Shown here: positions 3,715-22,322 of the stretch, in pieces
Position numbering within the stretch: position 1 is the first letter of the stretch
Layout of the letters: each line of letters starts with the position of its first letter
Assembly: GCA_964416765.1 (NCBI GenBank)
Contig: CAYQEU010000001.1
Span: 475,168-539,167, forward strand
Direction: 5' to 3'
DNA from: an uncultured Candidatus Saccharibacteria bacterium
Lineage (GTDB): Bacteria; Patescibacteriota; Doudnabacteria; UBA920
DNA: 64,000 nt
Translations under genes and position numbers: made by a program
Notes under the pieces: generated by a model
Told to the model about the DNA's origin: nothing
The model's database searches: none
Seen by the model: the letters and a program-made list of their open reading frames with translations, nothing else

Positions 3715-4494
3715 ATGGACAAGGCAATTATCCAAAAACTGTTAGATTTTGGGCTCTCTGAGAAAGAGGCCAGAATTTATATTTCCCTTCTAGAGCTCGA
3801 AGTGGCAACGGCTTTTGAAGCGGCCAAGCATGCCGGCATCAACCGAAGTTCCGCTTACGTTGTACTGGAGAGCCTGAAAAAGAAAGGGTTGGTTGCGGTG
3901 TCAGAAGACAAGAAAGTGAGCCGATACGTTGCCTCCGCTCCAGACATATTACTTCAATCCGCCAGCCTAGAAGCCAAGCGCCACCAGGAAATCAAAGCAG
4001 GCATCGAGTCCGTTATACCCGAACTTAAGGCACTCCACAAGGATACAAAGATGAAGCCGGTGGTAAAAGTGTTTGAGGGAAAAAATGGGCTAATTTCGTT
4101 GTTTGAAGATTCCTTGTACGCTAAAGAAAGAGAAATAAGAATTGTTTCTTCATTAGAAAAGATTTTTTCTTTATTGCCTGAATACGTACCAAGCTACATA
4201 CAAAGACGCTGGAAAAAACGGATAAAAATGTTTGGCATTCATCCCAGCAAACCGACTCTTATACAATATGAAAAGATGGAGAAAGAAAGTGAGGATGAAG
4301 CGATCTTTATCCCCGAAGAAAATTATAAAATGCCAGCAGACTTTGCGATTTACGATAACAAAATTGCTTACATGACCGGCGACAACGGGGGCTTCGGTGT
4401 AATTATTGAGAGCACTGATATGGCAAATGCCATGAAAAGTATTTTCGACCTAGCTCACAAAGAAGCAAAGAGAATAGCAGCAAAGAACAAATAA
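3715..4494 (+). CDS. TrmB-family transcriptional regulator
   Basis: N-terminal HTH resembling TrmB (LDFGLSEKEARIYISLLELE...INRSSAYVVLESLKKKGLV); convergent with histidine kinase, zero spacer. Confidence 0.6.
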   Translation: MDKAIIQKLLDFGLSEKEARIYISLLELEVATAFEAAKHAGINRSSAYVVLESLKKKGLVAVSEDKKVSRYVASAPDILLQSASLEAKRHQEIKAGIESVIPELKALHKDTKMKPVVKVFEGKNGLISLFEDSLYAKEREIRIVSSLEKIFSLLPEYVPSYIQRRWKKRIKMFGIHPSKPTLIQYEKMEKESEDEAIFIPEENYKMPADFAIYDNKIAYMTGDNGGFGVIIESTDMANAMKSIFDLAHKEAKRIAAKNK

Positions 4495-6156: not shown

Positions 6157-6164
6157 TTGTTATA

Positions 6165-7229: not shown

Positions 7230-7236
7230 AACTTAC

Positions 7237-8352: not shown

Positions 8353-8355
8353 AGT

Positions 8356-9852: not shown

Positions 9853-10901
9853 TACTGTTTATTAAATATTTTTTCTGCCATAGCATCTGCCACGGCGTCA
9901 GGATTCAATTTTTGTTTCGATGATTCATCCAAAACTTTCTTGAGCGTCTTCTTCAGATTATTGATATTTTTTAATACCCTTGTTTTATCATATCCACCTG
10001 GTAAAAGTTCATCCGCTACATTGATCAACCCTCCCGCATTTGCAATATAATCAGGAATGTGAAGAATGCCTTTCTGGAACAACTTATCCTTTATACTTTC
10101 ATCCGCTAATTGATTATTAGCGGTGCCGCAAACAATTGGAGCTCTGAGGCTTTTTAATCTCTCATCATCAATATCATTTCCCAACGCACAGGGACAATAT
10201 ACGTCTACTTCAGTTGTCTGCATTTCGCTCATTGTCACCGGCTGAATGTTAGGATGCAATTTTGATAACAAGTCTATTTTGGTCGAATCTATATCGGTAG
10301 CAAAAACTACTCCACCGGCCTTAGCTAATAACCAAGCTAATTCGCTTCCCGTTTTCCCCACTCCTTTTATGGCGAATTTTTTTCCCGTAATATCGGAATT
10401 GTTATACAAGTGTTCTAAAGCTACTTGAATACAAAGGAATACGCTCATGGCGGCGTATTTGGATGGATCCCCTGCCAAACCAGTTTTACCAATGAAGTAC
10501 GGACTGTACTGAAGCATGTATTGCACCTGTGGCTCGCTAAGGCCAACATCTTCGCCAGTATAAAATCTCCCTTTGAGAGAGCTTACTTTTTCGGCATAGG
10601 ATTTTAGAATTGCGTTGGTATCAGAGTGTGCCAAATCAGCAATGATTACACCTTTTCCTCCTCCAAAGGGTAGTCCTGCGATTGCACATTTATAAGTCAT
10701 AGCACGCGAAAGCCTTAAAACATCTTTTAATGCTTGTTCTTTGTCTTGGTAATTAAATATGCGGGTACCGCCCAATGCTGGTCCCAAATTTGTGTTGTGA
10801 ACGGCAATATAACCGGAAATTCCCGAGTTGTCTTCCGACAAGTCAACGACCTGTTCGTGATCTTGGTATTCCGGTGTTTTGTTAATATCTATGTAATCCA
10901 C
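9852..10901 (-). CDS. Glu/Leu/Phe/Val dehydrogenase family (leucine/phenylalanine dehydrogenase-like)
   Basis: GGTRIFNY...AIAGLPFGGGKGVI catalytic Lys motif; C-terminal NAD Rossmann GVGKTGSELA; 349 aa. Confidence 0.8.
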   Translation of the reverse strand: MDYIDINKTPEYQDHEQVVDLSEDNSGISGYIAVHNTNLGPALGGTRIFNYQDKEQALKDVLRLSRAMTYKCAIAGLPFGGGKGVIIADLAHSDTNAILKSYAEKVSSLKGRFYTGEDVGLSEPQVQYMLQYSPYFIGKTGLAGDPSKYAAMSVFLCIQVALEHLYNNSDITGKKFAIKGVGKTGSELAWLLAKAGGVVFATDIDSTKIDLLSKLHPNIQPVTMSEMQTTEVDVYCPCALGNDIDDERLKSLRAPIVCGTANNQLADESIKDKLFQKGILHIPDYIANAGGLINVADELLPGGYDKTRVLKNINNLKKTLKKVLDESSKQKLNPDAVADAMAEKIFNKQ

Positions 10902-12503: not shown

Positions 12504-12686
12504 CCGTGCCTGTAAATTTTCGAGGCCGGATTTAATTATTTTATTCCCTCCAAAAGATCCATAAAAATCATATCAGAAAGCCTAGTAAAATCAAGCATTT
12601 TTCAAAACTTGGCTTAAACAAGGCAAAAAACTCATTTAAAAAACCCCAATAAAATCAATGGGTTTAGGTACTAACAAAACCAAATT

Positions 12687-13664
12687 ATGCTAGAATGGTT
12701 TAAAGACATGCCAACACACGCTGATACTTCGAAAAAGTACAATTTCAAAAAGAGGGAAATTTTGGATTTATTAGCAAAAGAGTTCAAAATCACTAGTCCA
12801 CAATTAAGCCTTATTAAGTCAGGGCTGATTAATACTTCCATTAAGGTATCCTCTGCTAAAGAAGGTAAGTATTTGTTGAGGGTATACAAAGATCAACCGG
12901 AAGCAAAAATTCTGCGCGAACTGCTATTTATGGAGAAAATGAGCCGGAATCAAATCCCTGTACCCAAAATCTTTTTATCGAGAACCAAGTCTAAGATTAT
13001 TAAGTTTATGGATGATAGCGGAATAAAAAGAAAAGCTGTATTATTTGAGTTTAAAAGAGGTAAGCATATTTCTGCTTCACAACTAAATATGATTCAGGAG
13101 GTTGCTAATATTCATGCTCGCATGCACAAGGCAACCGGCAAGCTTACTCCTGCTTCTAAAGGAGTAAGAAACGCTATATTATGGCTTAAAGATGAACACG
13201 ATTCCGCTCAATACAAACTAAAATCTCTACCCGCCCAGAAGCAAAAACTCGATGTTATCTTTAGTAGCGTTATTAAAAAATTTCAAAAGTTACCTGTCCT
13301 CCCTCAAGGTTTGGCACACCTTGATTTTGATAGTTCCAATATTTTAGTGACCGGTCAAAAGGTCACTGGTATTATTGATTTTGACGACCTAGACCAAGTC
13401 CCTTTTATTATGGATTTGGGGTATTCCATATGGTGGTGGGTTTTTAATAATAACATCGTTAACTTGGAAAAAATTATTAATAACTATACTTCAGCCTACC
13501 AGAATGTCCGGCCGCTATCGTCAAAAGAACGTGAATCCCTCCGGTTGTTTATATCATTACGCAATATTACTCTAGCTTACTTATTGTTCGTTAACCTCCC
13601 CAAACGTCCAATCGTGGCTAAACTAAATAAAGCGATCTCTCTGAACAACCAGATTAACCGCTAA
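12687..13664 (+). CDS. Phosphotransferase-family kinase (APH/choline-kinase/homoserine-kinase-II-like); alternative start at 12708 possible
   Basis: Catalytic loop HLDFDSSNILV (HxDxxxxN) and IIDFDD (DFD metal-binding); Lys-rich N-lobe. Confidence 0.55.
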   Translation: MLEWFKDMPTHADTSKKYNFKKREILDLLAKEFKITSPQLSLIKSGLINTSIKVSSAKEGKYLLRVYKDQPEAKILRELLFMEKMSRNQIPVPKIFLSRTKSKIIKFMDDSGIKRKAVLFEFKRGKHISASQLNMIQEVANIHARMHKATGKLTPASKGVRNAILWLKDEHDSAQYKLKSLPAQKQKLDVIFSSVIKKFQKLPVLPQGLAHLDFDSSNILVTGQKVTGIIDFDDLDQVPFIMDLGYSIWWWVFNNNIVNLEKIINNYTSAYQNVRPLSSKERESLRLFISLRNITLAYLLFVNLPKRPIVAKLNKAISLNNQINR

Positions 13665-13668
13665 TCCT

Positions 13669-14799
13669 ATGTATATCCCCTTCCATGAACCTCACCTATC
13701 GAAAAAGACGGAATCAATAGTGAAAAAAGTTTTAGAGAGTAAGTGGCTTACTACGGGAAATTACGCCAAATTGTTTGAAAAGGAAATAGCTAGTTTCCTT
13801 CGGGCCGAGCACGTAACCGCGGTCTCATCGTGTACTGCCGCTCTGCATGTGGCTTACCTTGCCGTCGGGCTGGAACCAGGAGACGAGGTAATTGTTCCAA
13901 GCTTCACCTTTTGCTCTACTATAAACATGATTGTTAATACTGGTGCTAAACCAGTATTTTGTGATATCGATGAGCAATCCTTATGCTTAGACCCTAAGGA
14001 CGTGGCAAGAAAAATTTCCCCCAAGACCAAAGTAGTATTAGCCGTACATTTCGGCGGGACCCCGGCTGACCTAGATGCCATAAAAAAAGTTACCCAAGAC
14101 AAAAATATAGTTATAATTGAAGACGCAGCCCATGCCTTCACTACAAAATATAAAGGCAAGTATATTGGCACCCACGGTAACATCTCCTGTTTCAGCTTTT
14201 ATGCCACCAAAGTTTTAACTACTGGGGAAGGTGGTCTGCTTACTGTTCCTACATCATCAATGCTTACCACAGCTAAAACTATAGCCAATCATGGAGTCCC
14301 CGAGCAAAAGCACCACCGTTATTCTAAGTTAGGCAATCCTGGATACGAGGTGATTTATCCAGGATATAAATACAACCTAAGCGACCTCCACGCTGCAGTT
14401 GGCTTATCACAAATTGATTCAATTGAAGCTGACTTGAAAAAGCGCTCTGCCATAGCAAGCACTTATCAGCGCCTTTTAGGAAAGAATAGTAATCTAGTGC
14501 TCCCCCTTAACCCTGCCCAAAGAGGTAGCCAGCATTCTTGGCACTTGTTTACTACGCAAGTTGTTAAATCCAAGCACAGGGATCCCCTGCTGAGGCACTT
14601 AAAGCAAAAAGGTATAGGTACTAGTGTTCATTTTATCCCCAACCACGAGCAGCCATATTATAAAAAAATGTTTCCAAAAGTAAGACTACCAGTTACCGAA
14701 AGGGTCGGATCTACCATTTTGTCTTTGCCCATATATCCAGGATTAAAACCAGATGCCTTAAAATACATTGCTAAGGCCATAAACGAATTCTTATGGTAA
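13669..14799 (+). CDS. DegT/DnrJ/EryC1/StrS-family PLP-dependent sugar aminotransferase
   Basis: SCTAALHVA..., GDEVIVPSFTF, SFYATKVLTTGEGG (PLP Lys) motifs. Confidence 0.8.
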   Translation: MYIPFHEPHLSKKTESIVKKVLESKWLTTGNYAKLFEKEIASFLRAEHVTAVSSCTAALHVAYLAVGLEPGDEVIVPSFTFCSTINMIVNTGAKPVFCDIDEQSLCLDPKDVARKISPKTKVVLAVHFGGTPADLDAIKKVTQDKNIVIIEDAAHAFTTKYKGKYIGTHGNISCFSFYATKVLTTGEGGLLTVPTSSMLTTAKTIANHGVPEQKHHRYSKLGNPGYEVIYPGYKYNLSDLHAAVGLSQIDSIEADLKKRSAIASTYQRLLGKNSNLVLPLNPAQRGSQHSWHLFTTQVVKSKHRDPLLRHLKQKGIGTSVHFIPNHEQPYYKKMFPKVRLPVTERVGSTILSLPIYPGLKPDALKYIAKAINEFLW

Positions 14800-15719
14800 A
14801 TTTGCGAGGCAAAAACATTTTAATTACCGGTTCTAGTGGCTTCGTTGGATCGAACTTAGCCAAGGCCCTTTCAAGGCGAAGCGATATAAAAGTTACCTTA
14901 CTTGATACCAAGGCGCCCCGATATCCTGTTCCCGTAGGATGGCATTTCATAAAAGGATCCTTTGTCCAGCCTGATCTTCGCCGCAAAGCGCTGGCTGGAC
15001 AGGACCTTATTTTCCATCTGGGGGCCGTCGTAGGAGTAGAAACGGCTTTAAAGCAAAAAGAATTGCTGCGAAAAGTAAACTTAGATGCAACCATTGAGTT
15101 TATCGATGACGCTGTTCAGGCAGGGTGCAAAAAAATAGTATTTACTTCATCCTCAGAAATTTACGGCAACAGCAAAAAGATTCCATTCTTGGAATCGCAG
15201 CGAGCCAAACCGATATCAGATTACGGGAAGTATAAAATTTTAATTGAAAAGCATTTGCGGTCGCTGGTCAAGAAAGGCAAAATCAAAGCTACAGTAGTTC
15301 GGTTTTTTAATGTTTATGGGCCCGGGCAAAGGGATGCTTTCGTAATATCTCAATTTATTAAAAGAGCAGCGACTGGAAAACCTTTAATTATATTTGGCAG
15401 TGGCAACCAGACCCGAAGTTTCACCTACATTGATGACGCCATAACTGGATTACTTAAGGCCATGCGTTACGACCAAACTAATTTCGAAATCTTTAATATT
15501 GGCAGCGACCAAGAATTTTCCTTGTCCAAACTCGCTAATCTTATCGCTTCTTCCGAGTATCCGAAATTGAAAATTTTGTACCAGGATCCGACCATAAAGA
15601 GATATGACATAGCTAAACGAGTTCCCTCTTTGGAAAAGTCTAAGAAACTTTTAAAATTCCGGGCCAAGGTTTCTCTTCCCGCAGGACTGAGGTTTATGAA
15701 AGATGCAGAAACAGTTTGA
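14793..15719 (+). CDS. NAD-dependent epimerase/dehydratase (SDR family)
   Basis: ILITGSSGFVGSNL Rossmann; YGNSK (YxxxK) catalytic motif. Confidence 0.75.
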   Translation: MVNLRGKNILITGSSGFVGSNLAKALSRRSDIKVTLLDTKAPRYPVPVGWHFIKGSFVQPDLRRKALAGQDLIFHLGAVVGVETALKQKELLRKVNLDATIEFIDDAVQAGCKKIVFTSSSEIYGNSKKIPFLESQRAKPISDYGKYKILIEKHLRSLVKKGKIKATVVRFFNVYGPGQRDAFVISQFIKRAATGKPLIIFGSGNQTRSFTYIDDAITGLLKAMRYDQTNFEIFNIGSDQEFSLSKLANLIASSEYPKLKILYQDPTIKRYDIAKRVPSLEKSKKLLKFRAKVSLPAGLRFMKDAETV

Positions 15720-16965
15720 TCCAAAAGCATACAGCCCAGCTCGCCCTGGAAGGATATCCCAAATATATCCTTCCCCTTATTTAATATTTGATACCGTCGC
15801 GATTTTTTTCAGCGCAGTGTTACTTTTATTTCCGGGAATGAGAGACAAACTTCATAAAAAAATTAGATTGCTTCTGCTCCAAAAATTTCCAGCTAACGAA
15901 GCAGTTCTTTATGATTCGGGTAGGTCTGCTCTGGTCGCCGCTCTGGTTGAAAGCGGAGTAAAAGAAGGTGACGAAGTCATAATAAATAACAATTCGTGCC
16001 CGGCTGTGGCTGACAGCATAATCAGTACGAATGCAACTCCCGTTCTTGCCAAATGTAATGAGCAAGGTTGTATAGACATGGATTCACTAGACCAGATAAT
16101 CACCGCTAGAACCAAAGCAATAATTTTAACCCACTCTTATGGATTGCTCGATCAAGAACCGGTGCTCGAAGGTTCTGATATTGAAATAATCAATGATCTG
16201 GCGCAATGTGATCTGACAGACCCAGCTGTTATCGCCACAATCACTAAATACAAATTATCTATCCTAAGCTTTGGTCCGGAAAAATATTTTTCTGGATTGG
16301 GTGGAGGAGTCCTCCTAAACAATTATACGAGCCGGCCCACCCTGCCGAGTGGTGTTTCTAGGGTCGCACAACTCAAACAATCATGGGCATTTTGCGTTCA
16401 AAGATATCGCTACGTGTTAACTTTTTTTCTTTATTCTCTTAAGATTCCAGGGGTATTATCTCTGACATCCTCAATTCGCCTTTCTTTGCAATTCAAATCG
16501 AAAAAATCCCCTCACGACATATCCAAACCTGAAGCAATTGAGCCAAAATCCTATAATTCCTTTTTACTACTTTCGTTGTGGTATCGCCTTCACAGGATTA
16601 ATAGGGATATGAACGCCGAAAGAAACTACGTTTTGCTTAAAAGACTTTTGCCTGATATTCTAATTAGCCCCATTCTTTTGAATCAAACCCTTCCCCTCCA
16701 AGCGGTCATTAAAGTTCCTCCTCACGGAAGACAAAGATTAGCTGAGCAGCTTTCTAAACAAGGATTTCAAACGGTATGGAACTATTTTCCCCTTTCCTAT
16801 TACACCGCTTATTCAAATTTTCCGAGCCAAGTTAGCAATTTTTGGGAAAATGTTTTAACTATCCCTTTTCGTTCACTTTCTAGTTCTCAAATTCATAAAT
16901 TGGCAAAAATTATTAATGATGAAGTTATCCCAAATTCAGCAAATTCCCAATCCCTTTCTAACTAA
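15703..16965 (+). CDS. Divergent DegT-like aminotransferase paralog with ~180-aa C-terminal extension
   Basis: LYDSGRSAL, ILTHSYGLL, SFGPEKYFSGLGGG resemble DegT motifs; extra C-terminal region of unknown function. Confidence 0.45.
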   Translation: MQKQFDPKAYSPARPGRISQIYPSPYLIFDTVAIFFSAVLLLFPGMRDKLHKKIRLLLLQKFPANEAVLYDSGRSALVAALVESGVKEGDEVIINNNSCPAVADSIISTNATPVLAKCNEQGCIDMDSLDQIITARTKAIILTHSYGLLDQEPVLEGSDIEIINDLAQCDLTDPAVIATITKYKLSILSFGPEKYFSGLGGGVLLNNYTSRPTLPSGVSRVAQLKQSWAFCVQRYRYVLTFFLYSLKIPGVLSLTSSIRLSLQFKSKKSPHDISKPEAIEPKSYNSFLLLSLWYRLHRINRDMNAERNYVLLKRLLPDILISPILLNQTLPLQAVIKVPPHGRQRLAEQLSKQGFQTVWNYFPLSYYTAYSNFPSQVSNFWENVLTIPFRSLSSSQIHKLAKIINDEVIPNSANSQSLSN

Positions 16966-17752
16966 TCGATTTTTCGATCAGCCAAATTTCCAAAATGTTT
17001 TAAGGGAAGTGTTCTCTTTAAAAACTTCTGCTTTTAATTTTACCTTGGAAAATACAGATGGGTATATCAATATTCAAGAAGATAAAACAGGAATCTACTC
17101 AAATTTTATGGGCTATGGGGGTCCCATTATGGAGCGCCAAACCGGCAATATATCCTCTGTGCTTAGCGCTCTGCAACAGGAATATGGAAAAAAGTTTAGG
17201 CGTATCAAGCTTTACCCGTTCAATTCACAACTGCCTCATAACGGGTTCAAACCGGAGCAAACTTGGATTTTAGATTTAACAAAGTTTAATCTGGAAAACC
17301 TCAGTAAATCCGTAAGGTATGAAGTCCGAAAAGCAAAACAAAATGATGTATTAATCCGTCCTCTGGAGAAAGAAGAACTAGAATCGTTCTATAATATCTA
17401 CAAACAAACAGCTGCTCGGGTAGGCAGCAGTTATTTAACCCCATATCTGCTATTTCAAAAGCTACATGACATACCTGCATGCTTATTTCTTGGTGCATTC
17501 CACAAAAAAGAGTTGATTGCTACCAGCGTGTACCTACAATCTGACCAATATGTTTACTTCTGGTGGAATTCCTCAACAGATAAAGGACGATTACTTTCTG
17601 CTAATTACAGTCTTACCTTCGAAGCGATCAATTTATTTCAGAACAAGGGAATTTTGCACCTGGATATGGCTAGTTCCCATAATGAGAAAATACTCCGTTC
17701 AAAAGAAAACTGGGGTGCTACCCCAGCGAATTTTCTTAACCTATCTATTTAA
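16916..17752 (+). CDS. FemAB-like / GNAT-fold (Acetyltransf_6-like) acyl- or aminoacyl-transferase
   Basis: Size and pattern (YEVRKAKQNDV...YLQSDQYVYFWWNSS) reminiscent of FemAB/BioF2-like N-acyltransferases in sugar clusters; weak. Confidence 0.35.
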   Translation: MMKLSQIQQIPNPFLTNRFFDQPNFQNVLREVFSLKTSAFNFTLENTDGYINIQEDKTGIYSNFMGYGGPIMERQTGNISSVLSALQQEYGKKFRRIKLYPFNSQLPHNGFKPEQTWILDLTKFNLENLSKSVRYEVRKAKQNDVLIRPLEKEELESFYNIYKQTAARVGSSYLTPYLLFQKLHDIPACLFLGAFHKKELIATSVYLQSDQYVYFWWNSSTDKGRLLSANYSLTFEAINLFQNKGILHLDMASSHNEKILRSKENWGATPANFLNLSI

Positions 17753-18749
17753 CCATTGCTTCAGCAGGGTTAAATTCATAAGCGCGACGGGCATACTCAG
17801 GAAAATATTTGTGCACCAAGCCCTGCAATAATTTCATGTTATCAGGCTCGGGATTGGTCACTACTATAAAACCCGGGGATGATTCGTTGATATTGGTCCA
17901 GAGTTTGGCTCCGGCGCTGCTGGCAAAGTAAGCGGCGGCTGCGACATCCACTTTCTGCAAATCGAAACCAACAAACACATTGCCATTTTTGCTGACGGTG
18001 TCAGCGATCCCATACGCTGCGCTGCTATACCGGACATCTTTCAGCACTTGGTGGGAACCCTTTAGCTCTGCCCAAAATTTGGCCATCGCCTCATTCGTTT
18101 CTTCTGCTTCAGGGATGTCTGAAAAGTCGCTGTAGTACACTGATTCTTCAAACCTCCTCGGATTCGCTATGACTAGCCCTAGCTCGTCTGCTGAGACGTG
18201 AAAAGCTTTCTGGTCGCCTGCATAAAATAACTCTTGTTTTTCTGGCACATAGATCATTCCGTAATCCAACTTATTGCCTTTTTCATGGGCCAAGGAAATG
18301 CTGTAATCATTATATCCAGCCACATACGCCCTGGTGCCGTCTAGAGAATCCAAATAAAATCTAGATTCAGCCATTGGGTTACCGACTTTACCCTCTTCGC
18401 CTATGAAATAAGTCAGCTTTTCATCATTTACTTTTTTTAGCTCATCTAAAATCCGGGTTTGTGACTCCAGATCGGCCGCAGTCACGATATCGGTGCGGGA
18501 GTTTTCGAGCGGCTTTGTGTCTGCAACTACTGAATCTTTCTTTTCTACCAACAAAGCTCCGCCTTCAATAATCGCATCAAAAGCGTTGCGCAGGGATTTT
18601 TTCTTATCCGGGTCTTCTACAGTTGATTCTATCAAAATATAAAATCTATGAGCGATAGAATCTATTCTTTCAACATGGTCGCGCACTTTCTTCTCCGAGC
18701 TGGCCGAGAATTCAGACAGGGAGGATGAGCGTTCAAAATTATTTTGCAT
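17745..18749 (-). CDS. Inositol monophosphatase family protein (IMPase/CysQ-like) with N-terminal extension
   Basis: FYLDSLDGTRAYV (DPxDGT metal-binding) and WTNINES... motifs of IMPase superfamily. Confidence 0.6.
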   Translation of the reverse strand: MQNNFERSSSLSEFSASSEKKVRDHVERIDSIAHRFYILIESTVEDPDKKKSLRNAFDAIIEGGALLVEKKDSVVADTKPLENSRTDIVTAADLESQTRILDELKKVNDEKLTYFIGEEGKVGNPMAESRFYLDSLDGTRAYVAGYNDYSISLAHEKGNKLDYGMIYVPEKQELFYAGDQKAFHVSADELGLVIANPRRFEESVYYSDFSDIPEAEETNEAMAKFWAELKGSHQVLKDVRYSSAAYGIADTVSKNGNVFVGFDLQKVDVAAAAYFASSAGAKLWTNINESSPGFIVVTNPEPDNMKLLQGLVHKYFPEYARRAYEFNPAEAMVK

Positions 18750-18751
18750 TC

Positions 18752-19642
18752 TTAAAGAAGTTTATGATTTTTTAGCCACCCGATTGTAATTTCTAGGTTT
18801 TTCCTTTTCTGATAGTTGGCATCCTGGATTTCCAAAGATACGTGATACAGGGCTCTCGTCCTTTTTAGGCCAGATAAACATCGTGCTAAAACCTGTTCCG
18901 AAAAATCTCCTCGGGCTGGGGTTATTCCCTCATTATTATAACCTTTGGCTCCCGGGAAAGCGAGTCCGGCAAAGGAGCTGAAATGGTAATGTATTATTTG
19001 CCCTTGGATCGTACGGTAGTCGTTAAATTTAATTTTTTTGTTCTGGGCCAGAAAATTAGCTGCTTCAACCATCTTATTGGTAAAAGCCCAATGCCCAAAA
19101 TCCCAATTGATATATATGTTTTTAAATTTGCTAAATCCTTTAAAGTCTTGTGGGTACACGAAAATAGAATCAAAGTCAGTACCGTCATTGCCAATCACTG
19201 GCATATTCTCTATCGCCACTTTAACGGGCTTACCTTCTAAATACCTATCCAATTTTCCATAAAACGCCAACATTTTTTTCCGAATCAAAGGAAGCTTCTC
19301 CGGATCAAACTTATGAAGTGGCTGAATATAATTGGAATGCAGAATCACTTTCTCGATGCCTTCATTAGCCGCTAAATCCAAGTAACTATAAAGCAGATTC
19401 CGGAATCGGTGATCATCCAAATAATTAGCATTGTCAGTTGGGAAGTGAATACTAACTAAAGATCCAGGAAATCTTTTACGAACTTCCTGAATATTTTTGA
19501 CTATCCTTTTAAAAACCATGGGTGATTGGAGATTGAGCCCATCAAACAGGATTCCTTCTAACCCAAAATCATGACGCTTAATCAGAGCCTCAGGAATTTG
19601 GGACCGATCAGTTAACAGAAACGGAACTAAATACTTAATCAT
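18752..19642 (-). CDS. Sugar phosphate isomerase/epimerase, xylose-isomerase-like TIM barrel
   Basis: VKVAIENMP and DFGHW motifs typical of AP-endonuclease-2/xylose isomerase-like TIM barrel fold. Confidence 0.5.
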   Translation of the reverse strand: MIKYLVPFLLTDRSQIPEALIKRHDFGLEGILFDGLNLQSPMVFKRIVKNIQEVRKRFPGSLVSIHFPTDNANYLDDHRFRNLLYSYLDLAANEGIEKVILHSNYIQPLHKFDPEKLPLIRKKMLAFYGKLDRYLEGKPVKVAIENMPVIGNDGTDFDSIFVYPQDFKGFSKFKNIYINWDFGHWAFTNKMVEAANFLAQNKKIKFNDYRTIQGQIIHYHFSSFAGLAFPGAKGYNNEGITPARGDFSEQVLARCLSGLKRTRALYHVSLEIQDANYQKRKNLEITIGWLKNHKLL

Positions 19643-19644
19643 AA

Positions 19645-20328
19645 TTAGTCGCGTATTTCCCTGATCATTACAAAAGCTTCACATGCGCCGACATTATTCT
19701 TGCTTCCCCATAGCTTGGCGTTAAGCTTGATGGTTTCAAGTGAGCGAGGATGAGGAAACTCCCTTAATTCGCTGTTATAAGCTTTCATAGCTTGGAGCTT
19801 GTCTTCTAGTTCGCTTTCAATATTAACAAAGACATTGGGCAAGAAGGGTCGCTCAATACTAAAAGCCGACATTTCCGTACTGGAAAGGGTTTCGAAAGAA
19901 AGCAGCTGTTCCACTTTATTTTCGATTGGGCGGCAAGCAGTTAAGGCTGCTTGAAAAGCAATGCGATGATCAATATTCAAATCGCTCGCGTGATGAGTGT
20001 AAACAATGTTAGGTTTAAACTCTGCCACAGCCGTAGAGACTTTTTTCACTACATCCAAAAAATCAAGCCCGTCAAAACGGTTATCAGGAAGCTCTAATCT
20101 CAAACTCTGTTTGATTCCTAAGACATTGAGCGCTACTTCAGTCTCGGCAAAAGAGTCACTTTTAGTTATTTCAGACACTGGCTCATAGTAGTCTTGCCGA
20201 GAGCTTTTGCCGTCGCCCATTATCAAAACTGCAACCTGATCCCCGGCCTTAACATGCTTTCTGAGTGTTCCCCCAACCCCAATAATCTCGTCATCAGGGT
20301 GAGCCACGATAGCCAAAACTTTATTCAT
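19645..20328 (-). CDS. PIG-L/LmbE-family N-acetylglucosaminyl deacetylase (start moved to internal Met)
   Basis: VLAIVAHPDDE signature at N-terminus; HxxH later; upstream 14 codons overlap a predicted terminator so Met15 start preferred. Confidence 0.7.
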   Translation of the reverse strand: MNKVLAIVAHPDDEIIGVGGTLRKHVKAGDQVAVLIMGDGKSSRQDYYEPVSEITKSDSFAETEVALNVLGIKQSLRLELPDNRFDGLDFLDVVKKVSTAVAEFKPNIVYTHHASDLNIDHRIAFQAALTACRPIENKVEQLLSFETLSSTEMSAFSIERPFLPNVFVNIESELEDKLQAMKAYNSELREFPHPRSLETIKLNAKLWGSKNNVGACEAFVMIREIRD

Positions 20329-20348
20329 AAGAGTATTATAGTTTTTCA

Positions 20349-20390
20349 GGACAAAAAAATACAGGGCCAACCAAAGTGCGGTCAGCCCTG
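20349..20390 (-). terminator. Putative rho-independent terminator after RNHCP gene
   Basis: Minus strand: cagggc-loop-gccctg followed by tattttttt immediately after TAG stop. Confidence 0.4.
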
Positions 20391-20849
20391 CTAGTCTCGG
20401 TGCGGAACGCCGCCAACCCCGTAATAGGATAGCAGTACAGCGTCAGCAAGCGTCTGGTCGTTGCTGGCCAGTCCGAGTAATGCGTCCAGGGAATCGTCAG
20501 CCGCAATTCGATTACTGCTTTCCTTGTGACAGGAAACGCAGGAATGAATAATGCCGATTTCGCCGTCGTTCCTTATTTCAACCTCAAGAGGTTGCATGTT
20601 TCCACCGCAGATTGCGCTTCCAAGCCGCGAACCTACAGAGCTATCAACGTGCTTGCTCCACAAACACGTTGGACAGTGATTGCGATGACTTGAACCTGGC
20701 GCTAAGCCGGGTATCATCGCACGACAGTGGCTGCAACGGAAATCATTCCTTTTGTTCTTGGATTTTTCCAGCTTGCGAGCCGTTTTCAGGTCAAGCGAAT
20801 CATCATCTGCAAATCTCGCTTGATGCTTAAACGTTTTTGCCATGGACAA
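20391..20849 (-). CDS. RNHCP-domain zinc-ribbon protein
   Basis: Literal RNHCP motif (SHRNHCPTCLWSKH) plus CSHC and CVSCH Cys/His pairs. Confidence 0.65.
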   Translation of the reverse strand: MSMAKTFKHQARFADDDSLDLKTARKLEKSKNKRNDFRCSHCRAMIPGLAPGSSHRNHCPTCLWSKHVDSSVGSRLGSAICGGNMQPLEVEIRNDGEIGIIHSCVSCHKESSNRIAADDSLDALLGLASNDQTLADAVLLSYYGVGGVPHRD

Positions 20850-20872
20850 AGCCCTCCTTAACTTTGTGCATA

Positions 20873-20881
20873 ATTATAGCA
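20873..20881 (-). promoter_or_regulatory. Extended -10 element TGCTATAAT upstream of RNHCP gene
   Basis: Forward attatagca = reverse complement TGCTATAAT, ~24 nt upstream of start; SD-like aaggagg between. Confidence 0.45.
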
Positions 20882-20903
20882 CAAAAACGTTATTTTTGCA
20901 AGT

Positions 20904-21614
20904 CTATAAACCTCTGCTTTTATTGGGTTTTTTAAGCTTATTATTAAATTTAATAACCATATTTGAAATATTGGAGTCCAAAAGATAAGAATTGGCAATC
21001 ACACAGTGGCCTCCAATTGGACCATCGCAGTGTGTTAGGTATGGCCTTACCACTTCTCTTTTGCCTAATTTTTCGTACCCTTCGTTATAATCTCGGTTGG
21101 CCGAGCGGTAAACTTCTTCAAAGTCTAAACCATTTTTTTTGCACCATTGGTAAATTTCTTTTTCGAGCATAATTAACCAGCCATATTGAGTGGTTTCCCA
21201 TAGCTTTATTGCTTCTGTCGTTTCACTTCCGTCATAACATCTAACTTTGATTCCTGCCTTTTGAAAATAGCGAGCAGCTTTTTTGGCTTCCTTGCCGCCA
21301 AAGTACTTTACAAATGTTTTTAAACCTAATTCCAAATTTGGGTGAACGCCACGAACCGGACTATGCACAGATTTGCATTTTTTACTTGTTCCCACGGGGA
21401 CAGTGGAATGTATAATAGTTAATTTGGGACGGTATAACTTTTGATAACGTTTTACCTCAGCTATAAACTTATGACTATAACCAAAAGAAATATGCATCAC
21501 TTCATAGCCTCGGCCCTGAGGCTCAGAAAGTGTTAAATCTGCAATATCGCTTTTGATGATATTTGCTAAGGCCTGCCCTACCTCCCCATATCCTATAATT
21601 AGATGCTTATTCAT
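20904..21614 (-). CDS. NAD(P)-binding Rossmann-fold oxidoreductase (ProC/ketopantoate-reductase/6PGDH-like N-domain)
   Basis: N-terminal IIGYGEVGQALA GxGxxG; remainder not confidently assigned. Confidence 0.35.
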   Translation of the reverse strand: MNKHLIIGYGEVGQALANIIKSDIADLTLSEPQGRGYEVMHISFGYSHKFIAEVKRYQKLYRPKLTIIHSTVPVGTSKKCKSVHSPVRGVHPNLELGLKTFVKYFGGKEAKKAARYFQKAGIKVRCYDGSETTEAIKLWETTQYGWLIMLEKEIYQWCKKNGLDFEEVYRSANRDYNEGYEKLGKREVVRPYLTHCDGPIGGHCVIANSYLLDSNISNMVIKFNNKLKKPNKSRGL

Positions 21615-21671
21615 ATTTAAATAATTATAATAAAAATGCTCTTAAAATCAATCTTGTTAAAAACAAATGTC

Positions 21672-21703
21672 ATAAAATAAAACTCCCCAAAGGGGAGTTT
21701 TTA
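21672..21703 (-). terminator. Rho-independent terminator after rpsI
   Basis: aaaactcccc-aaa-ggggagtttt hairpin with flanking T/A runs. Confidence 0.6.
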
Positions 21704-21710
21704 ATATATT

Positions 21711-22322
21711 TTAACGCTTCGCCCACTGTGGACTGCGGCGTGCACCACGAAGACCTGGCTTCTTTCGTTCCTTTTTGCGGTCATCGCGGGTCAGGAACTG
21801 GTTCTTCTTCAAGACTTTGCGGACATCATTGTCCAGATCAGCCAAAGCCTGGGCAATCCCGTGGCGGACTGCCTGGGATTGGGCGTTCATTCCCCCGCCG
21901 TGTACGCTGGAAACGAAGTAGAAATCGCCGGCAAGACCGGTAACTTCCAAAGGCTTCATAGCCTGTTCCTGGTAAATCGGGTTGGCGAAGTAGGACTTAA
22001 AAGGCTTCTTGTTAACAGTATTGTCGCCCTTGCCGGAGAAGATGCGGACATTGGCAATAGCGGTCTTGCGGCGGCCGGTGGCAAACTGGTAGCGGTCTTT
22101 GGCCAGGGTTGGCTTTACGGCAACCACAGCTTCAGCGTCATTGCCGGACTTCATGCCAGCGGAAATAGCTGCAGCGGCATCTTTCATGGAAGGTGCGGCC
22201 GGCGCTTCAGCCTTCGCTTCAGCAGCTTTACGAGGAGCGCGAGGCTTCTTTTCTGCTGCGGGAGCCTTTGCCTTTGCAGGGGCCTTTGCCGGAGTCTTTT
22301 TTTCAGTATCTTTAGTAGCCAT
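21711..22322 (-). CDS. rpsI: 30S ribosomal protein S9 with ~70-aa Lys/Ala/Pro-rich N-terminal extension
   Basis: C-terminus KKPGLRGARRSPQWAKR; S9 core GGGMNAQSQAVRHGIA; N-terminal KAPAKAKAPAAEKKPRAPRKAAEAKAEAPAA tail. Confidence 0.95.
   Translation of the reverse strand: MATKDTEKKTPAKAPAKAKAPAAEKKPRAPRKAAEAKAEAPAAPSMKDAAAAISAGMKSGNDAEAVVAVKPTLAKDRYQFATGRRKTAIANVRIFSGKGDNTVNKKPFKSYFANPIYQEQAMKPLEVTGLAGDFYFVSSVHGGGMNAQSQAVRHGIAQALADLDNDVRKVLKKNQFLTRDDRKKERKKPGLRGARRSPQWAKR

What the first reader, a model, noticed from the sequence alone, without database searches (positions are those of the whole stretch)
12687..21614. Low-GC block of amino-sugar/aminocyclitol-type tailoring enzymes
A roughly 9-kb block at about 38-42% GC is sandwiched between the HU gene and the ribosomal operon. 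It encodes an APH-like phosphotransferase, two DegT-type PLP aminotransferases (one with a 180-aa C-terminal extension), an SDR epimerase/dehydratase and a FemAB/GNAT-like transferase. On the opposite strand it encodes an inositol-monophosphatase-family protein, a xylose-isomerase-like TIM-barrel enzyme, an LmbE/PIG-L deacetylase, an RNHCP zinc-ribbon protein and a Rossmann oxidoreductase. The kinase, aminotransferase, IMPase, LmbE and TIM-isomerase combination is reminiscent of aminoglycoside/aminocyclitol or mycothiol-like pathways rather than a simple O-antigen sugar cluster.
Basis: partly seen in the sequence, partly recalled or inferred. Interest (0 to 1): 0.65.

Follow-up and report, generated by a model that had tools for sequence, protein, structure and literature searches.

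The report
Acquired aminoacyl-amino-sugar biosynthesis cassette
This 9-kb low-GC block is a horizontally acquired ten-gene cassette, shared in its core with Bacillus and Streptomyces, that most likely builds a small amino sugar carrying a tRNA-delivered amino acid (chemistry resembling the antibiotic prumycin) in what appears to be a tiny-genome uncultivated bacterium.

Summary
All ten ORFs exist at the stated coordinates with the stated domain families. Their GC3 is about 0.40, against about 0.58 for the rest of the window.

Related metagenomic strains (identical HU and L13 proteins; flanks 87-93% identical in DNA) lack the block. Window 12631-21701 replaces 749 bp there, so the block is an insertion or replacement.

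The aminocyclitol/mycothiol reading is not supported. There is no cyclitol synthase, glycosyltransferase or ligase, and the IMPase-like gene is not a conserved member.

Six genes form a rare, mobile core also found in other Parcubacteria, in the Bacillus velezensis and B. cereus groups (some on plasmids) and in Streptomyces:
- an ArnB-like aminotransferase;
- a UXS/ArnA-motif SDR;
- a second, divergent PLP enzyme;
- a Fem-type transferase whose model best matches Sba18/Sbb17, tRNA-dependent enzymes that aminoacylate an amino sugar;
- a PIG-L deacetylase;
- a TIM-barrel metalloenzyme.

Bacillus and Streptomyces copies start with a UDP-HexNAc-type 6-dehydrogenase, and the Bacillus copies end with an MFS exporter and a small GNAT. 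This window's type instead has an APH kinase, a phosphatase, a mini-dehydrogenase and an RNHCP zinc-ribbon protein.

Best inference: an Ara4N-like 4-amino-pentose that is N-aminoacylated and then 2-N-deacetylated. The product and its fate are untested.

The parts
12631..21701 (.). Strain-specific island (9,071 bp) holding all ten genes. In related strains it is replaced by 749 bp with one 192-aa membrane-protein gene.
   Evidence: blastn of L091 against the window: homology at 87-93% identity stops at window 12630 and resumes at 21702. GC3 is about 0.40 vs about 0.58 for the background.
12687..13664 (+). APH-family small-molecule kinase at the head of the plus-strand operon. Found in the dehydrogenase-less CPR-type copies.
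   Evidence: Pfam APH 92 bits. The catalytic HLD(F/Y)DSSN and IIDFDD motifs are conserved in 4 orthologues. The nearest solved relatives are homoserine kinase II (2ppq) and amicoumacin kinase (6sum); NahK matches only marginally. It co-occurs with a phosphohydrolase and never with a full-length dehydrogenase.
13669..14799 (+). DegT1: ArnB-like sugar 4-aminotransferase (core gene).
   Evidence: Pfam DegT 394 bits. The best NCBIfam model is ArnB at 342 bits, below its 631 cutoff. The best PDB hits are ArnB at 274-278 bits; the next family scores 223. It is 47-52% identical to cassette orthologues in CPR and Bacillus.
14793..15719 (+). Extended SDR with a decarboxylase-type S-S-E / YxxxK active site (core gene).
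   Evidence: Pfam Epimerase 164 bits. SSSE(I/V)YG is invariant in the 5 orthologues aligned. Characterised UXNAcS reads STSEVYG and is 34-38% identical, scoring better than the RmlB-type control. PDB neighbours include UDP-GlcA epimerases and decarboxylases.
15703..16965 (+). DegT2: divergent fold-type-I PLP enzyme, the signature gene of the cassette (core gene).
   Evidence: The DegT hit covers only residues 64-204. The Schiff-base Lys (SFGPxK) and the PLP Asp are conserved. It is fused to the Fem-like protein in L001 (670 aa). The family is rare: 23 representative clusters at E<=1e-30 out of 1.84 billion.
16916..17752 (+). Fem-type double-GNAT transferase, a putative aminoacyl-tRNA-dependent N-aminoacylase of the sugar amine (core gene).
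   Evidence: Pfam FemAB 42 bits, above the cutoff of 24. The AF2 model has pTM 0.71. The top Foldseek hits are Sbb17/Sba18, aa-tRNA-dependent synthases solved with streptothrisamine (E 1e-12, TM 0.64), followed by FemX. Lys263 near the C-terminus is invariant in 11 orthologues from 3 phyla.
17745..18749 (-). IMPase-family phosphatase. An accessory gene specific to this copy; it stands where other copies have an MBL-fold hydrolase.
   Evidence: Pfam Inositol_P 61 bits. The GEEG and DSLDGT metal-binding motifs are present. It has no orthologue in the 12 other cassette loci; L004, L087 and L088 have Lactamase_B_2 instead.
18752..19642 (-). Xylose-isomerase-like TIM-barrel metalloenzyme, next to PIG-L in most copies (core gene, step unknown).
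   Evidence: AP_endonuc_2 23 bits here and 45 bits in the Streptomyces orthologue. Invariant residues include E145, D181, H184, H218, H220 and E271. The only significant PDB profile hit is MJ1311.
19645..20325 (-). PIG-L/LmbE zinc N-deacetylase (core gene). The ORF can be extended to a TTG at 20370.
   Evidence: Pfam PIG-L 91 bits. The AHPDDE and HxxH-type motifs are invariant. It is 51-60% identical to cassette orthologues. It scores below the BshB/MshB cutoffs. An M20 amidohydrolase is present in L089 (which has no PIG-L) and in L086, which is cut short.
20391..20849 (-). RNHCP zinc-ribbon protein of unknown function. An accessory gene restricted to the CPR copies.
   Evidence: Pfam RNHCP 101 bits. 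Eight Cys/His ligands are invariant. It is present in all six distinct CPR loci that cover that side, and it overlaps or abuts the full-length dehydrogenase gene in L089 and L090. There is no literature. A terminator-like hairpin follows at 20361-20391.
20904..21614 (-). Mini NDP-sugar-dehydrogenase-like protein: Rossmann GYGEVG plus a central domain with IGGHC, and no UDP-binding C-terminal domain.
   Evidence: Weak hits to the UDPG_MGDP_dh central domain and to TIGR03026. IGGHC aligns with IGGYC of a full-length dehydrogenase. It has a 46%-identical orthologue in cassette locus L087. It is not a pseudogene remnant.
17709..17727 (.). Bidirectional GC-rich hairpin where the two convergent operons meet.
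   Evidence: Terminator-like site found on both strands. The Fem-like gene ends at 17752 and the IMPase-like gene ends at 17745.

Best explanation
The block is a horizontally acquired biosynthetic cassette for an N-aminoacylated amino-pentose of the 4-amino-4-deoxy-arabinose type. The chemistry resembles that of prumycin (4-N-alanyl-2,4-diamino-2,4-dideoxy-arabinose).

Proposed order of steps; all are inferred except where marked:
1. A UDP-N-acetylhexosaminuronic acid is the entry substrate. In the Bacillus, Streptomyces and some CPR copies it would be made by the operon's own 6-dehydrogenase. In this window the source is unknown.
2. The SDR oxidises C4 and decarboxylates, giving a UDP-4-keto-pentose.
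3. DegT1, which is ArnB-like, transaminates C4.
4. The Fem-type transferase moves an amino acid from an aminoacyl-tRNA onto that 4-amine.
5. DegT2, a PLP enzyme sometimes fused to the transferase, tailors the new aminoacyl group. One possibility is L-to-D epimerisation, because that group would then carry the only free primary amine.
6. PIG-L removes the 2-N-acetyl group.
7. The TIM-barrel metalloenzyme performs an unassigned step.

In this CPR-type version, the APH kinase and the IMPase-like phosphatase add a phosphorylation/dephosphorylation cycle. I read this most likely as self-protection or a pro-drug step, standing in for the MFS exporter and GNAT of the Bacillus versions. The product is most likely a free small molecule rather than a polymer unit.

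Shown by tool results: the gene content, the insertion, the conserved cross-phylum core, the family and fold assignments, and the conserved catalytic motifs. Inferred: substrates, order of steps, identity of the product and its fate.
For: Acquisition:
- GC3 is about 0.40 vs about 0.58.
- Strains with identical HU and L13 proteins and 87-93% identical flanks lack window 12631-21701.
- Other copies sit on Bacillus megaplasmids flanked by IS elements or next to resolvase and GIY-YIG genes.

Conserved core:
- DegT1, SDR, DegT2, Fem-like and TIM, plus a deacylase, occur in every complete locus from CPR, Bacillus and actinobacteria.
- DegT2 and the Fem-like protein are fused in L001.

Chemistry:
- DegT1's nearest solved relatives are ArnB, at 278 bits vs 223 for the next family.
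- The SDR has an invariant S-S-E...YxxxK motif, like the characterised UDP-GlcNAcA decarboxylase UXNAcS (STSEVYG). It is 34-38% identical to UXNAcS, more than the RmlB-type control.
- The operon-head dehydrogenases score best against UDP-ManNAc and UDP-GlcNAc 6-dehydrogenase models and are 38-43% identical to the characterised UGlcNAcDH. This fits an N-acetylated substrate and the need for a deacetylase.
- The Fem-like model best matches Sbb17/Sba18, tRNA-dependent enzymes solved with an amino-sugar substrate. An invariant C-terminal Lys is positioned like the catalytic Lys of FemX and DhpH.
- DegT2 keeps its PLP Lys and Asp.
- An M20 amidohydrolase stands where PIG-L would be in L089, which argues that a deacylation step is required.

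Small-molecule fate:
- None of 13 loci carries a glycosyltransferase or flippase inside the cassette.
- Bacillus copies end with an MFS exporter and a small GNAT that has weak similarity to streptothricin and spermidine acetyltransferases.
- On the B. thuringiensis plasmid, alanine dehydrogenase and TdcB lie just upstream.
- The APH profile is nearest to homoserine kinase II and amicoumacin kinase, not to anomeric sugar kinases.
- Prumycin is reported from the B. amyloliquefaciens group. Its first isolation from a Streptomyces is from my own knowledge; one search gives only the 1971 reference. These are the two non-CPR groups that hold the cassette.
Against: - No enzyme here reaches an equivalog cutoff, and no step has been tested biochemically.
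- This copy lacks the full-length 6-dehydrogenase (tblastn negative across the 64-kb window). The source of a uronic-acid substrate is therefore unexplained. I could not search the rest of the genome.
- The S-S-E motif argument rests on my own knowledge of UXS/ArnA/RmlB/GalE active sites plus one characterised sequence. By overall score the SDR is as close to LegB- and GalE-type models as to UXS.
- The Fem-like model is only moderately confident (mean pLDDT 69; the C-terminal 27 residues, which include Lys263, are below 50).
- The CPR copies have no exporter, and the host has native surface-glycan machinery, including an ArnT/PMT-type GT-C, elsewhere in the window.
- The roles of TIM, RNHCP, the mini-dehydrogenase and DegT2 are guesses.
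- No searchable paper links any gene to prumycin, so that link is circumstantial.
Confidence: 0.55

Rival explanations
1. Surface-glycan diversification. The cassette makes a modified nucleotide sugar (for example a UDP-4-N-aminoacyl-amino sugar). The host's own glycosyltransferases, encoded elsewhere, then add it to a cell-envelope glycan, S-layer or pilin. The island would be one allele of a hypervariable surface-antigen locus.
For: - The CPR copies have no exporter.
- The same window holds native-composition surface-glycan genes: a Wzy_C ligase, GT4, GT2, a Wzx-type flippase, RmlB/RmlD-type enzymes, an ArnT/PMT-type GT-C and a sortase.
- In related strains the neighbouring variable slot holds a typical sugar-tailoring set: GFO_IDH_MocA, DegT, an acetyltransferase and a methyltransferase.
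- ArnB-like and SDR chemistry is classic envelope-modification chemistry.
Against: - None of 13 cassette loci in three phyla carries a glycosyltransferase, polyprenyl-phosphate transferase or flippase within the cassette.
- Bacillus copies carry an MFS exporter and a small GNAT instead.
- The kinase/phosphatase pair and the PIG-L plus TIM pair have no obvious role in making a nucleotide-sugar donor.
- The closest structural relatives of the Fem-like protein work in antibiotic biosynthesis.
Confidence: 0.28
2. Sugar-phosphate route (kanosamine/NTD-like). In the dehydrogenase-less CPR version the pathway runs on a phosphorylated sugar rather than a nucleotide sugar. APH phosphorylates a scavenged sugar, the SDR or mini-dehydrogenase oxidises it, the DegT enzymes aminate it, and the IMPase-like or MBL enzyme removes the phosphate at the end.
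For: - APH plus a phosphohydrolase never co-occurs with the full-length dehydrogenase.
- The mini-dehydrogenase lacks the UDP-binding domain.
- DegT-family enzymes can act on sugar phosphates: NtdA appears among DegT2's PDB hits.
- IMPase-family enzymes dephosphorylate sugar and cyclitol phosphates.
Against: - DegT1 and the SDR are about 40-50% identical to those of the dehydrogenase-type copies and keep the same motifs, so they should use the same kind of substrate, a nucleotide sugar.
- The SDR is an extended SDR of the NDP-sugar class.
- The APH profile is not close to known sugar kinases: NahK matches at E 0.03-0.3.
- The mini-dehydrogenase is missing from several APH-type copies.
Confidence: 0.1
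3. One reading: an aminocyclitol/aminoglycoside-type or mycothiol/bacillithiol-type pathway built around an inositol or GlcNAc-conjugate intermediate.
For: The domain combination (APH, DegT, IMPase, LmbE, TIM) superficially resembles those pathways. PIG-L's best named models are BshB1/BshB2. DegT2's weak PDB hits include 2-deoxy-scyllo-inosose aminotransferases.
Against: - No cyclitol synthase, glycosyltransferase or cysteine ligase is present.
- PIG-L scores far below the BshB and MshB cutoffs.
- The IMPase-like gene is unique to this copy and is replaced by an MBL-fold gene elsewhere.
- DegT1 is clearly ArnB-like.
- The conserved core includes a Fem-type transferase and, in other phyla, a UDP-HexNAc-type dehydrogenase. 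Neither belongs to those pathways.
Confidence: 0.04
4. Peptidoglycan-precursor editing. The Fem-like protein is an ordinary cross-bridge transferase acting on UDP-MurNAc-pentapeptide or lipid II, and the sugar enzymes are unrelated neighbours.
For: Pfam FemAB hit. One homologue is annotated by NCBI as a 'peptidoglycan bridge formation glycyltransferase FemA/FemB family protein'.
Against: - The gene is always embedded in the same six-gene set across three phyla and is fused to DegT2 in L001.
- It is absent from closely related strains, which presumably still make cell wall.
- It is structurally closer to Sba18/Sbb17 than to FemX, and at 278 aa it is shorter than FemX or FemA.
Confidence: 0.03

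Closest known systems
Arn pathway for UDP-4-amino-4-deoxy-L-arabinose (Ugd, ArnA, ArnB, ArnD) and the Bacillus UDP-GlcNAc 6-dehydrogenase / UXNAcS pair
   Same: The proposed logic is the same: 6-dehydrogenase, then SDR 4-oxidase/decarboxylase, then an ArnB-type 4-aminotransferase, then N-acylation of the 4-amine, with a later deacylase. DegT1's best solved relatives are ArnB. The SDR shares the S/T-S-E motif and 34-38% identity with characterised UXNAcS. The cassette dehydrogenases in other genomes are 38-43% identical to characterised UGlcNAcDH.
   Different: There is no formyltransferase domain; the N-acyl donor is predicted to be an aminoacyl-tRNA used by a Fem-type enzyme. There is no ArnC, ArnT or ArnE/F inside the cassette. 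The deacylase is PIG-L (or M20), not ArnD, and is proposed to act on the 2-N-acetyl group. This window's copy lacks the dehydrogenase. No protein reaches the ArnB or ArnA equivalog cutoffs.
Sba18/Sbb17 (Orf11-type) aminoacyl-tRNA-dependent transferases of streptothricin-related antibiotics (BD-12), and FemX
   Same: They share the double-GNAT Fem fold and a similar length (278 vs 285-288 aa). They are the top structural matches (E 1e-12, TM 0.64). Their known function is the transfer of an amino acid from aa-tRNA onto an amino-sugar amine. The window protein has an invariant Lys near the C-terminus, as in FemX and DhpH.
   Different: Sequence identity is only about 15%. The genomic context is entirely different, with no streptolidine or streptothricin genes. 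The acceptor is predicted to be a 4-amino-pentose nucleotide, and the donor amino acid is unknown. In some genomes the protein is fused to a PLP enzyme.
Prumycin (4-N-D-alanyl-2,4-diamino-2,4-dideoxy-L-arabinose), an orphan antibiotic of the B. amyloliquefaciens group and Streptomyces
   Same: The predicted product class matches the structure: a pentose with a 4-amine in the arabino series, an aminoacyl group on N-4 and a free 2-amine. The cassette occurs in the B. amyloliquefaciens/velezensis group and in Streptomyces, the genera from which prumycin is reported (plus my own knowledge of the Streptomyces origin and of the structure). Alanine dehydrogenase lies next to the B. thuringiensis copy.
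   Different: No biosynthetic genes for prumycin are described in the searchable literature, so membership cannot be tested. The CPR copy differs in its accessory genes (APH, phosphatase, RNHCP, mini-dehydrogenase; no dehydrogenase, WbqC or MFS) and may make a different congener.
Aminoglycoside producers' kinase/phosphatase self-protection (for example streptomycin 6-phosphate) and amicoumacin kinase
   Same: An APH-family kinase is paired with a phosphatase inside a biosynthetic cluster for a basic amino-sugar compound. The APH profile hits amicoumacin kinase at E 2e-12 and aminoglycoside kinases more weakly.
   Different: Similarity is at family level only. There is no cyclitol core. The kinase's substrate is unknown, and it could act on a precursor rather than on the product.

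Membership tests
Aminocyclitol-aminoglycoside biosynthetic clusters | A cyclitol-forming enzyme (2-deoxy-scyllo-inosose synthase or myo-inositol-1-phosphate synthase) | tested here: not met
   Pfam and NCBIfam scans of all ten proteins show no such domain. None appears in the related cassette loci either.
Aminocyclitol-aminoglycoside biosynthetic clusters | Glycosyltransferase(s) joining amino sugars to the cyclitol | tested here: not met
   No GT domain lies within 12631-21701. The GTs in the window lie at or beyond 35 kb and have native composition.
Mycothiol / bacillithiol pathway | A deacetylase that is a true MshB or BshB equivalog | tested here: not met
   BshB1 71 bits vs a cutoff of 182; BshB2 40 vs 195; MshB 17.5 vs 224.
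Mycothiol / bacillithiol pathway | MshA/BshA glycosyltransferase and MshC/BshC cysteine ligase | tested here: not met
   Absent from the block and from all related loci.
Arn (UDP-Ara4N) pathway | An ArnB-type UDP-4-keto-pentose aminotransferase | tested here: inconclusive
   The best PDB relatives are ArnB (278 bits), but the NCBIfam ArnB model gives 342 bits against a cutoff of 631. It is ArnB-like, not an equivalog.
Arn (UDP-Ara4N) pathway | A UDP-GlcA 4-oxidase/decarboxylase (ArnA C-terminal domain or UXS type) | tested here: inconclusive
   S-S-E...YxxxK motif and 34-38% identity to UXNAcS. Overall scores to GalE- and LegB-type models are similar or higher. Activity was not tested.
Arn (UDP-Ara4N) pathway | UDP-sugar 6-dehydrogenase supplying the uronic acid | tested here: not met
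   The window has no full-length dehydrogenase, only a 236-aa mini version. One is present in the Bacillus, Streptomyces and two Parcubacteria copies.
Arn (UDP-Ara4N) pathway | Formyltransferase, ArnC, ArnD and ArnT | tested here: not met
   None lies inside the cassette. A Fmt-like formyltransferase (1243-2199) and a PMT_2 GT-C (60727-62244) are distant native genes.
FemABX / aa-tRNA-dependent GNAT-fold transferases | Double-GNAT Fem fold | tested here: met
   Pfam FemAB 42 bits, above the cutoff of 24. The top 11 Foldseek hits are Sbb17/Sba18, FemX and FemA at probability 1.00. Caveat: the model's mean pLDDT is 69.
FemABX / aa-tRNA-dependent GNAT-fold transferases | A conserved catalytic Lys in the C-terminal GNAT domain (FemX K305, DhpH K329) | tested here: inconclusive
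   An invariant Lys263 lies near the C-terminus in 11 orthologues. Its equivalence rests on position only, and the model is unreliable there (pLDDT below 50 for 252-278).
FemABX / aa-tRNA-dependent GNAT-fold transferases | Use of aminoacyl-tRNA as the donor | not testable with these tools
   This needs an enzyme assay.
Known anti-phage defence systems (PADLOC) | Any protein matching a defence-system model | tested here: not met
   No hit for any of the ten proteins at E<=0.001.

The most novel reading that the evidence does not exclude
An ultra-small-genome (CPR/Patescibacteria-like) bacterium has acquired a strain-variable gene cluster for a secreted, tRNA-dependent aminoacyl-diaminopentose antibiotic of the prumycin type. 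It has refitted the cluster with its own protection and handling module (APH kinase, phosphatase, RNHCP zinc-ribbon protein) in place of the exporter and acetyltransferase used by Bacillus. The same analysis would identify the long-orphan prumycin gene cluster in B. velezensis and Streptomyces, and would reveal a new PLP enzyme family (DegT2) that edits a sugar-bound aminoacyl group.
Probability: 0.25. Interest if true: 0.8.

Novelty: new variant of a known kind. Interest (0 to 1): 0.6.

Why it matters
- **An undescribed conserved cassette.** The searchable literature describes nothing like it. It combines Ara4N-type nucleotide-sugar chemistry with tRNA-dependent aminoacylation, a reaction known so far for only a handful of natural products.
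- **A testable candidate for prumycin biosynthesis.** The genes behind this antifungal and antibacterial amino sugar, known since 1971 and relevant to Bacillus biocontrol strains, are unknown. The cassette is present in the genetically tractable strain FZB42.
- **Unexpected host.** Finding the cassette as a strain-variable island in a bacterium that appears to have a very small genome bears on whether such reduced episymbionts make specialised metabolites or diversify their surfaces by gene transfer from Firmicutes and Actinobacteria.
- **Functional handles on unknowns.** The cassette gives a first context for the uncharacterised RNHCP domain, for WbqC, and for a rare divergent PLP enzyme family.

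Tried and rejected
- **Exact look-ups of the source contig** with the DegT1 protein and with P0001 found nothing on record. The rest of the 681-kb genome could therefore not be inspected for a dehydrogenase, GlmU or exporters.
- **Collection scans.** The genome-collection scan with DegT2 alone found no relative. An eight-sequence DegT2 alignment was too divergent for the metagenome scan; a four-sequence CPR alignment worked.
- **Word-indexed homolog searches** for DegT2 and the Fem-like protein returned very few relatives. The exhaustive HMMER search was needed to size the DegT2 family.
- **PIG-L is not a marker of the cassette.** Of the 80 GTDB loci retrieved with its motifs, only a few carry the set.
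- **The 236-aa Rossmann ORF is not a decayed dehydrogenase.** tblastn with Bacillus dehydrogenases finds no remnants in the window. The ORF has an intact N-terminal GxGxxG and a conserved orthologue in L087.
- **Integration signatures.** There are no tRNA genes in the window and no convincing flanking direct repeats. One 26-nt imperfect inverted repeat (12639-12664 / 20908-20933) is probably chance.
- **Promoter-like sites** are no more frequent than in shuffled sequence.
- **Defence-system rival.** There are no PADLOC hits.
- **Literature.** No paper links genes to prumycin, none concerns RNHCP, and Gu et al. 2010 on UXNAcS is not held. I recovered the UXNAcS and UGlcNAcDH sequences from another paper's supplement instead; that text contains frame errors, so I used tblastn.
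- **WbqC plus FemAB literature search** gave nothing relevant.

Full report
OBSERVATION. They are APH (12687-13664 +), DegT (13669-14799 +), an extended SDR (14793-15719 +), a second DegT-related protein (15703-16965 +) and a FemAB/GNAT protein (16916-17752 +). On the opposite strand lie an IMPase-family protein (17745-18749), an AP_endonuc_2 TIM barrel (18752-19642), PIG-L (19645-20370), RNHCP (20391-20849) and a small Rossmann protein (20904-21614). No NCBIfam equivalog cutoff is reached by any of them.

COMPOSITION. The compositional claim holds gene by gene. GC3 is 0.33-0.47 for nine of the ten genes (RNHCP is 0.52). The genes to the right mostly fall between 0.50 and 0.70. The low-GC zone seen in the sliding profile is in fact two islands, 3715-10901 and 12687-21614. 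They are separated by three genes of native composition: HIT, a response regulator and HU.

THE BLOCK IS AN INSERTION. Exact-sequence look-ups of the window's HU and L13 proteins recovered several metagenomic contigs (L091-L098). They show the order S13-S11-S4-RpoA-L17-L13-S9, one 192-aa gene, HU, then the response regulator. At the DNA level L091 is 87-93% identical to the window on both sides. Homology stops at window 12630 and resumes at 21702. So 9,071 bp of the window (12631-21701, all ten genes) stand in place of 749 bp that hold one small membrane-protein gene. Homology also ends at window 11625. Beyond the response regulator, the relatives carry a different sugar-tailoring cluster (GFO_IDH_MocA, DegT, an acetyltransferase and a methyltransferase) where the window has HIT and the other low-GC island. 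There are no tRNA genes and no convincing flanking repeats.

HOST. Exact copies of window proteins sit on a 681,337-bp NCBI contig. The nearest relatives of the cassette proteins come from Paceibacterota/Parcubacteria, Nomurabacteria and Doudnabacteria. I infer a CPR/Patescibacteria-type host, but I did not prove this.

A CONSERVED, MOBILE CASSETTE. Neighbourhoods recovered through the PIG-L, DegT2 and Fem-like proteins show the same core in three phyla. The core is DegT1, SDR, DegT2, Fem-like and TIM, plus a deacylase. It occurs in:
- CPR loci L001, L004 (identical to L085), L086, L087, L088, L089 and L090;
- B. velezensis (L002, L003; also strain FZB42) and B. atrophaeus (L005);
- B. cereus-group megaplasmids (27 plasmid hits; L084);
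- a Streptomyces MAG (L022) and a Kineosporiaceae MAG (L015).
Identities to the window proteins are 47-52% (DegT1), 37-48% (SDR), 27-35% (DegT2), 28-39% (Fem-like), 31-43% (TIM) and 51-60% (PIG-L). In L001, DegT2 and the Fem-like protein are one 670-aa polypeptide, and a 694-aa relative exists. The family is rare: of 1.84 billion representative proteins, only 23 match DegT2 at E<=1e-30. The PIG-L subfamily itself is much broader; most of the 80 GTDB loci found with its motifs lack the set. Mobility is evident from plasmid location with flanking IS elements and from adjacent resolvase and GIY-YIG genes.

ACCESSORY MODULES.
- Bacillus and actinobacterial copies begin with a full-length NDP-sugar 6-dehydrogenase and contain WbqC. 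The Bacillus copies also end with an MFS transporter and a small GNAT. On the B. thuringiensis plasmid, alanine dehydrogenase and TdcB lie just upstream.
- CPR copies never have WbqC or MFS, and they carry RNHCP wherever that side of the locus is covered.
- CPR copies come in two kinds. L089 and L090 have a full-length dehydrogenase, overlapping or abutting RNHCP, and no APH. The window, L001, L004, L087 and L088 have APH at the operon head and no full-length dehydrogenase. In these, APH comes with a phosphohydrolase: an MBL-fold protein in L004, L087 and L088, and the IMPase-like protein in the window. L001 is cut at the contig end. L087 and the window also share the mini-dehydrogenase (46% identity).
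- L089 has an M20 amidohydrolase and no PIG-L. L086 also has an M20 gene but is cut before the PIG-L region.
These swaps (IMPase for MBL, M20 for PIG-L) suggest that a phosphoester hydrolysis and a deacylation are the needed functions. This is my inference.

WHAT THE ENZYMES LOOK LIKE.
- DegT1's closest solved relatives are ArnB enzymes (274-278 bits; the next family scores 223), and the best NCBIfam model is ArnB.
- The SDR has an invariant SSSE(I/V)YG...YxxxK. From established knowledge of extended SDRs, T/S-S-E marks UDP-GlcA decarboxylases (UXS, ArnA), T-D-E marks 4,6-dehydratases and S-x-T marks GalE epimerases.
- I recovered the characterised B. cereus UDP-GlcNAcA decarboxylase UXNAcS from a paper's supplement. 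It reads STSEVYG. It is 34-38% identical to the cassette SDRs (about 160-187 bits summed), against 110 bits for the window's own RmlB-type control.
- The operon-head dehydrogenases of the Bacillus copies score best against UDP-ManNAc and UDP-GlcNAc 6-dehydrogenase models. The Bacillus and L089 dehydrogenases are 37-43% identical to characterised UGlcNAcDH, and the L090 enzyme about 30%.
- DegT2 matches the DegT profile only in its N-terminal half. It keeps the Schiff-base lysine and the PLP aspartate, and its C-terminal half still aligns with DegT.
- The Fem-like protein passes the Pfam FemAB threshold. Its AlphaFold model (pTM 0.71, mean pLDDT 69) best matches Sbb17 and Sba18, 'aminoacyl-tRNA-dependent peptide synthases' solved with streptothrisamine, ahead of FemX and FemA. 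A 2026 review describes this enzyme type (Orf11 of BD-12) as transferring glycine from Gly-tRNA onto an amino-sugar intermediate. It names a C-terminal lysine as the key residue in FemX (K305) and DhpH (K329). All 11 cassette Fem-like proteins share an invariant Lys near the C-terminus.
- PIG-L keeps the family's zinc-site motifs. The TIM proteins conserve a set of Glu, Asp and His residues typical of metal-dependent sugar isomerases and epimerases, and they hit only MJ1311 in the PDB.
- The APH keeps its kinase motifs. It is nearest to homoserine kinase II and amicoumacin kinase, and barely matches anomeric HexNAc kinases.
- The IMPase-like protein keeps GEEG and DSLDGT.
- The mini-dehydrogenase has GYGEVG, and its IGGHC aligns with the catalytic-cysteine motif of a full-length dehydrogenase. 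It lacks the UDP-binding domain.
- RNHCP conserves eight zinc ligands and has no literature.

MOST LIKELY MECHANISM (inferred). UDP-HexNAc-uronic acid is decarboxylated by the SDR to a UDP-4-keto-pentose. The ArnB-like DegT1 transaminates it to a 4-amino-pentose. The Fem-type enzyme N-aminoacylates that amine from aa-tRNA. DegT2 tailors the aminoacyl group, PIG-L removes the 2-N-acetyl group, and TIM does an unassigned step. The predicted product class, a 4-N-aminoacyl-2,4-diamino-2,4-dideoxy-pentose, is the structure of prumycin. Prumycin is reported from the B. amyloliquefaciens group; its original isolation from a Streptomyces is from my own knowledge. These are the two non-CPR groups that hold the cassette. 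No searchable paper assigns genes to prumycin, and the 2026 review of tRNA-dependent enzymes lists nothing like it. In the window's version I read the APH and phosphatase pair as a protective phosphorylation cycle, replacing the MFS and GNAT of Bacillus. A salvage or sugar-phosphate input role is a live alternative, because APH never co-occurs with the dehydrogenase.

MAIN WEAKNESSES.
- This copy has no full-length dehydrogenase anywhere in the 64-kb window.
- No exporter accompanies the CPR copies.
- The host has native surface-glycan genes in the same window, including a flippase, a Wzy_C ligase, several GTs and an ArnT/PMT-type GT-C. A surface-glycan fate therefore remains a serious rival (about 0.28).
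- The aminocyclitol/mycothiol idea fails its membership tests. No PADLOC defence model matches.

OPERON STRUCTURE. There are two convergent units. The plus-strand five-gene operon has overlapping or nearly abutting genes. The minus-strand genes meet it at a bidirectional hairpin at 17709-17727. A strong terminator-like hairpin at 20361-20391 follows RNHCP, and another at 21679-21701 lies at the island edge, just downstream of the S9 gene. The promoter scan was uninformative.

VERDICT. The block is a foreign, antibiotic-cluster-like amino-sugar cassette, but it is not of the cyclitol or thiol kind. It is a new variant built from known enzyme kinds, with a testable link to an orphan antibiotic and an unusual host.

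Noticed in passing
window 3715-10901: A second low-GC3 island (GC3 0.34-0.45). It holds a TrmB-like regulator, a 7TM histidine kinase and a minus-strand operon: a ScyB-like amino-acid (tryptophan-type) dehydrogenase, a PaaK-like adenylate-forming ligase, and a ThiF-like E1 plus a nitroreductase-like FMN protein. The last two together correspond to the two halves of the 'Rv1355c family'. It may be another acquired small-molecule pathway. Related strains lack it.
   Followed up: partly
L091 11031-20003 (also L092-L097): In related strains the slot beyond the response regulator holds a different sugar-tailoring cluster: three GFO_IDH_MocA oxidoreductases, DegT, an acetyltransferase, a methyltransferase and an MBL-fold protein. 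The S9-HU-response regulator neighbourhood is therefore a hot spot for exchanging accessory sugar genes.
   Followed up: partly
L001 11567-13579; protein P0195: DegT2 and the Fem-like transferase are fused into one 670-aa protein in a CPR genome, and a 694-aa relative exists. This is gene-fusion evidence that the two act together.
   Followed up: partly
L089 6551-8405; L090 1046-2829: RNHCP is co-transcribed with a full-length NDP-sugar 6-dehydrogenase in two Parcubacteria copies; the genes overlap in L089. RNHCP and WbqC never occur together across phyla. This may give a first functional context for the uncharacterised RNHCP domain.
   Followed up: partly
L089 155-1453; L086 about 390: An M20-family amidohydrolase sits at the operon head in two CPR copies. 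One of them (L089) lacks PIG-L, which looks like a non-orthologous replacement of the deacylase.
   Followed up: no
L084 2410-4520 (B. thuringiensis plasmid pKBT365): Alanine dehydrogenase and TdcB (serine/threonine ammonia-lyase) lie immediately upstream of the plasmid-borne cassette. IS4 and IS110 transposases lie downstream. This suggests a supply of alanine for the product.
   Followed up: no
window 33420-63930: A native-composition surface-polysaccharide region: a Wzy_C ligase, GT4, a cytidylyltransferase-HAD fusion, a Wzx-type flippase, RmlB- and RmlD-type enzymes, GT2s, a PMT_2/ArnT-type GT-C, a sortase and a subtilase.
   Followed up: partly
window 21711-22322: Ribosomal protein S9 is 203 aa long, and the Pfam S9 domain covers only residues 83-203. 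It therefore has an N-terminal extension of about 80 aa, which the related strains also have.
   Followed up: no
window 12639-12664 and 20908-20933: A 26-nt imperfect inverted repeat (81% complementary). One arm lies in the HU-APH intergenic region just inside the island's left edge, and the other at the 3' end of the mini-dehydrogenase gene. It is probably chance.
   Followed up: no
window 15703-16965: The database gene call for DegT2 (P0149, 365 aa) starts 55 codons later than the ORF. Orthologues from three phyla conserve the longer N-terminus, so the 420-aa form is more likely correct.
   Followed up: yes
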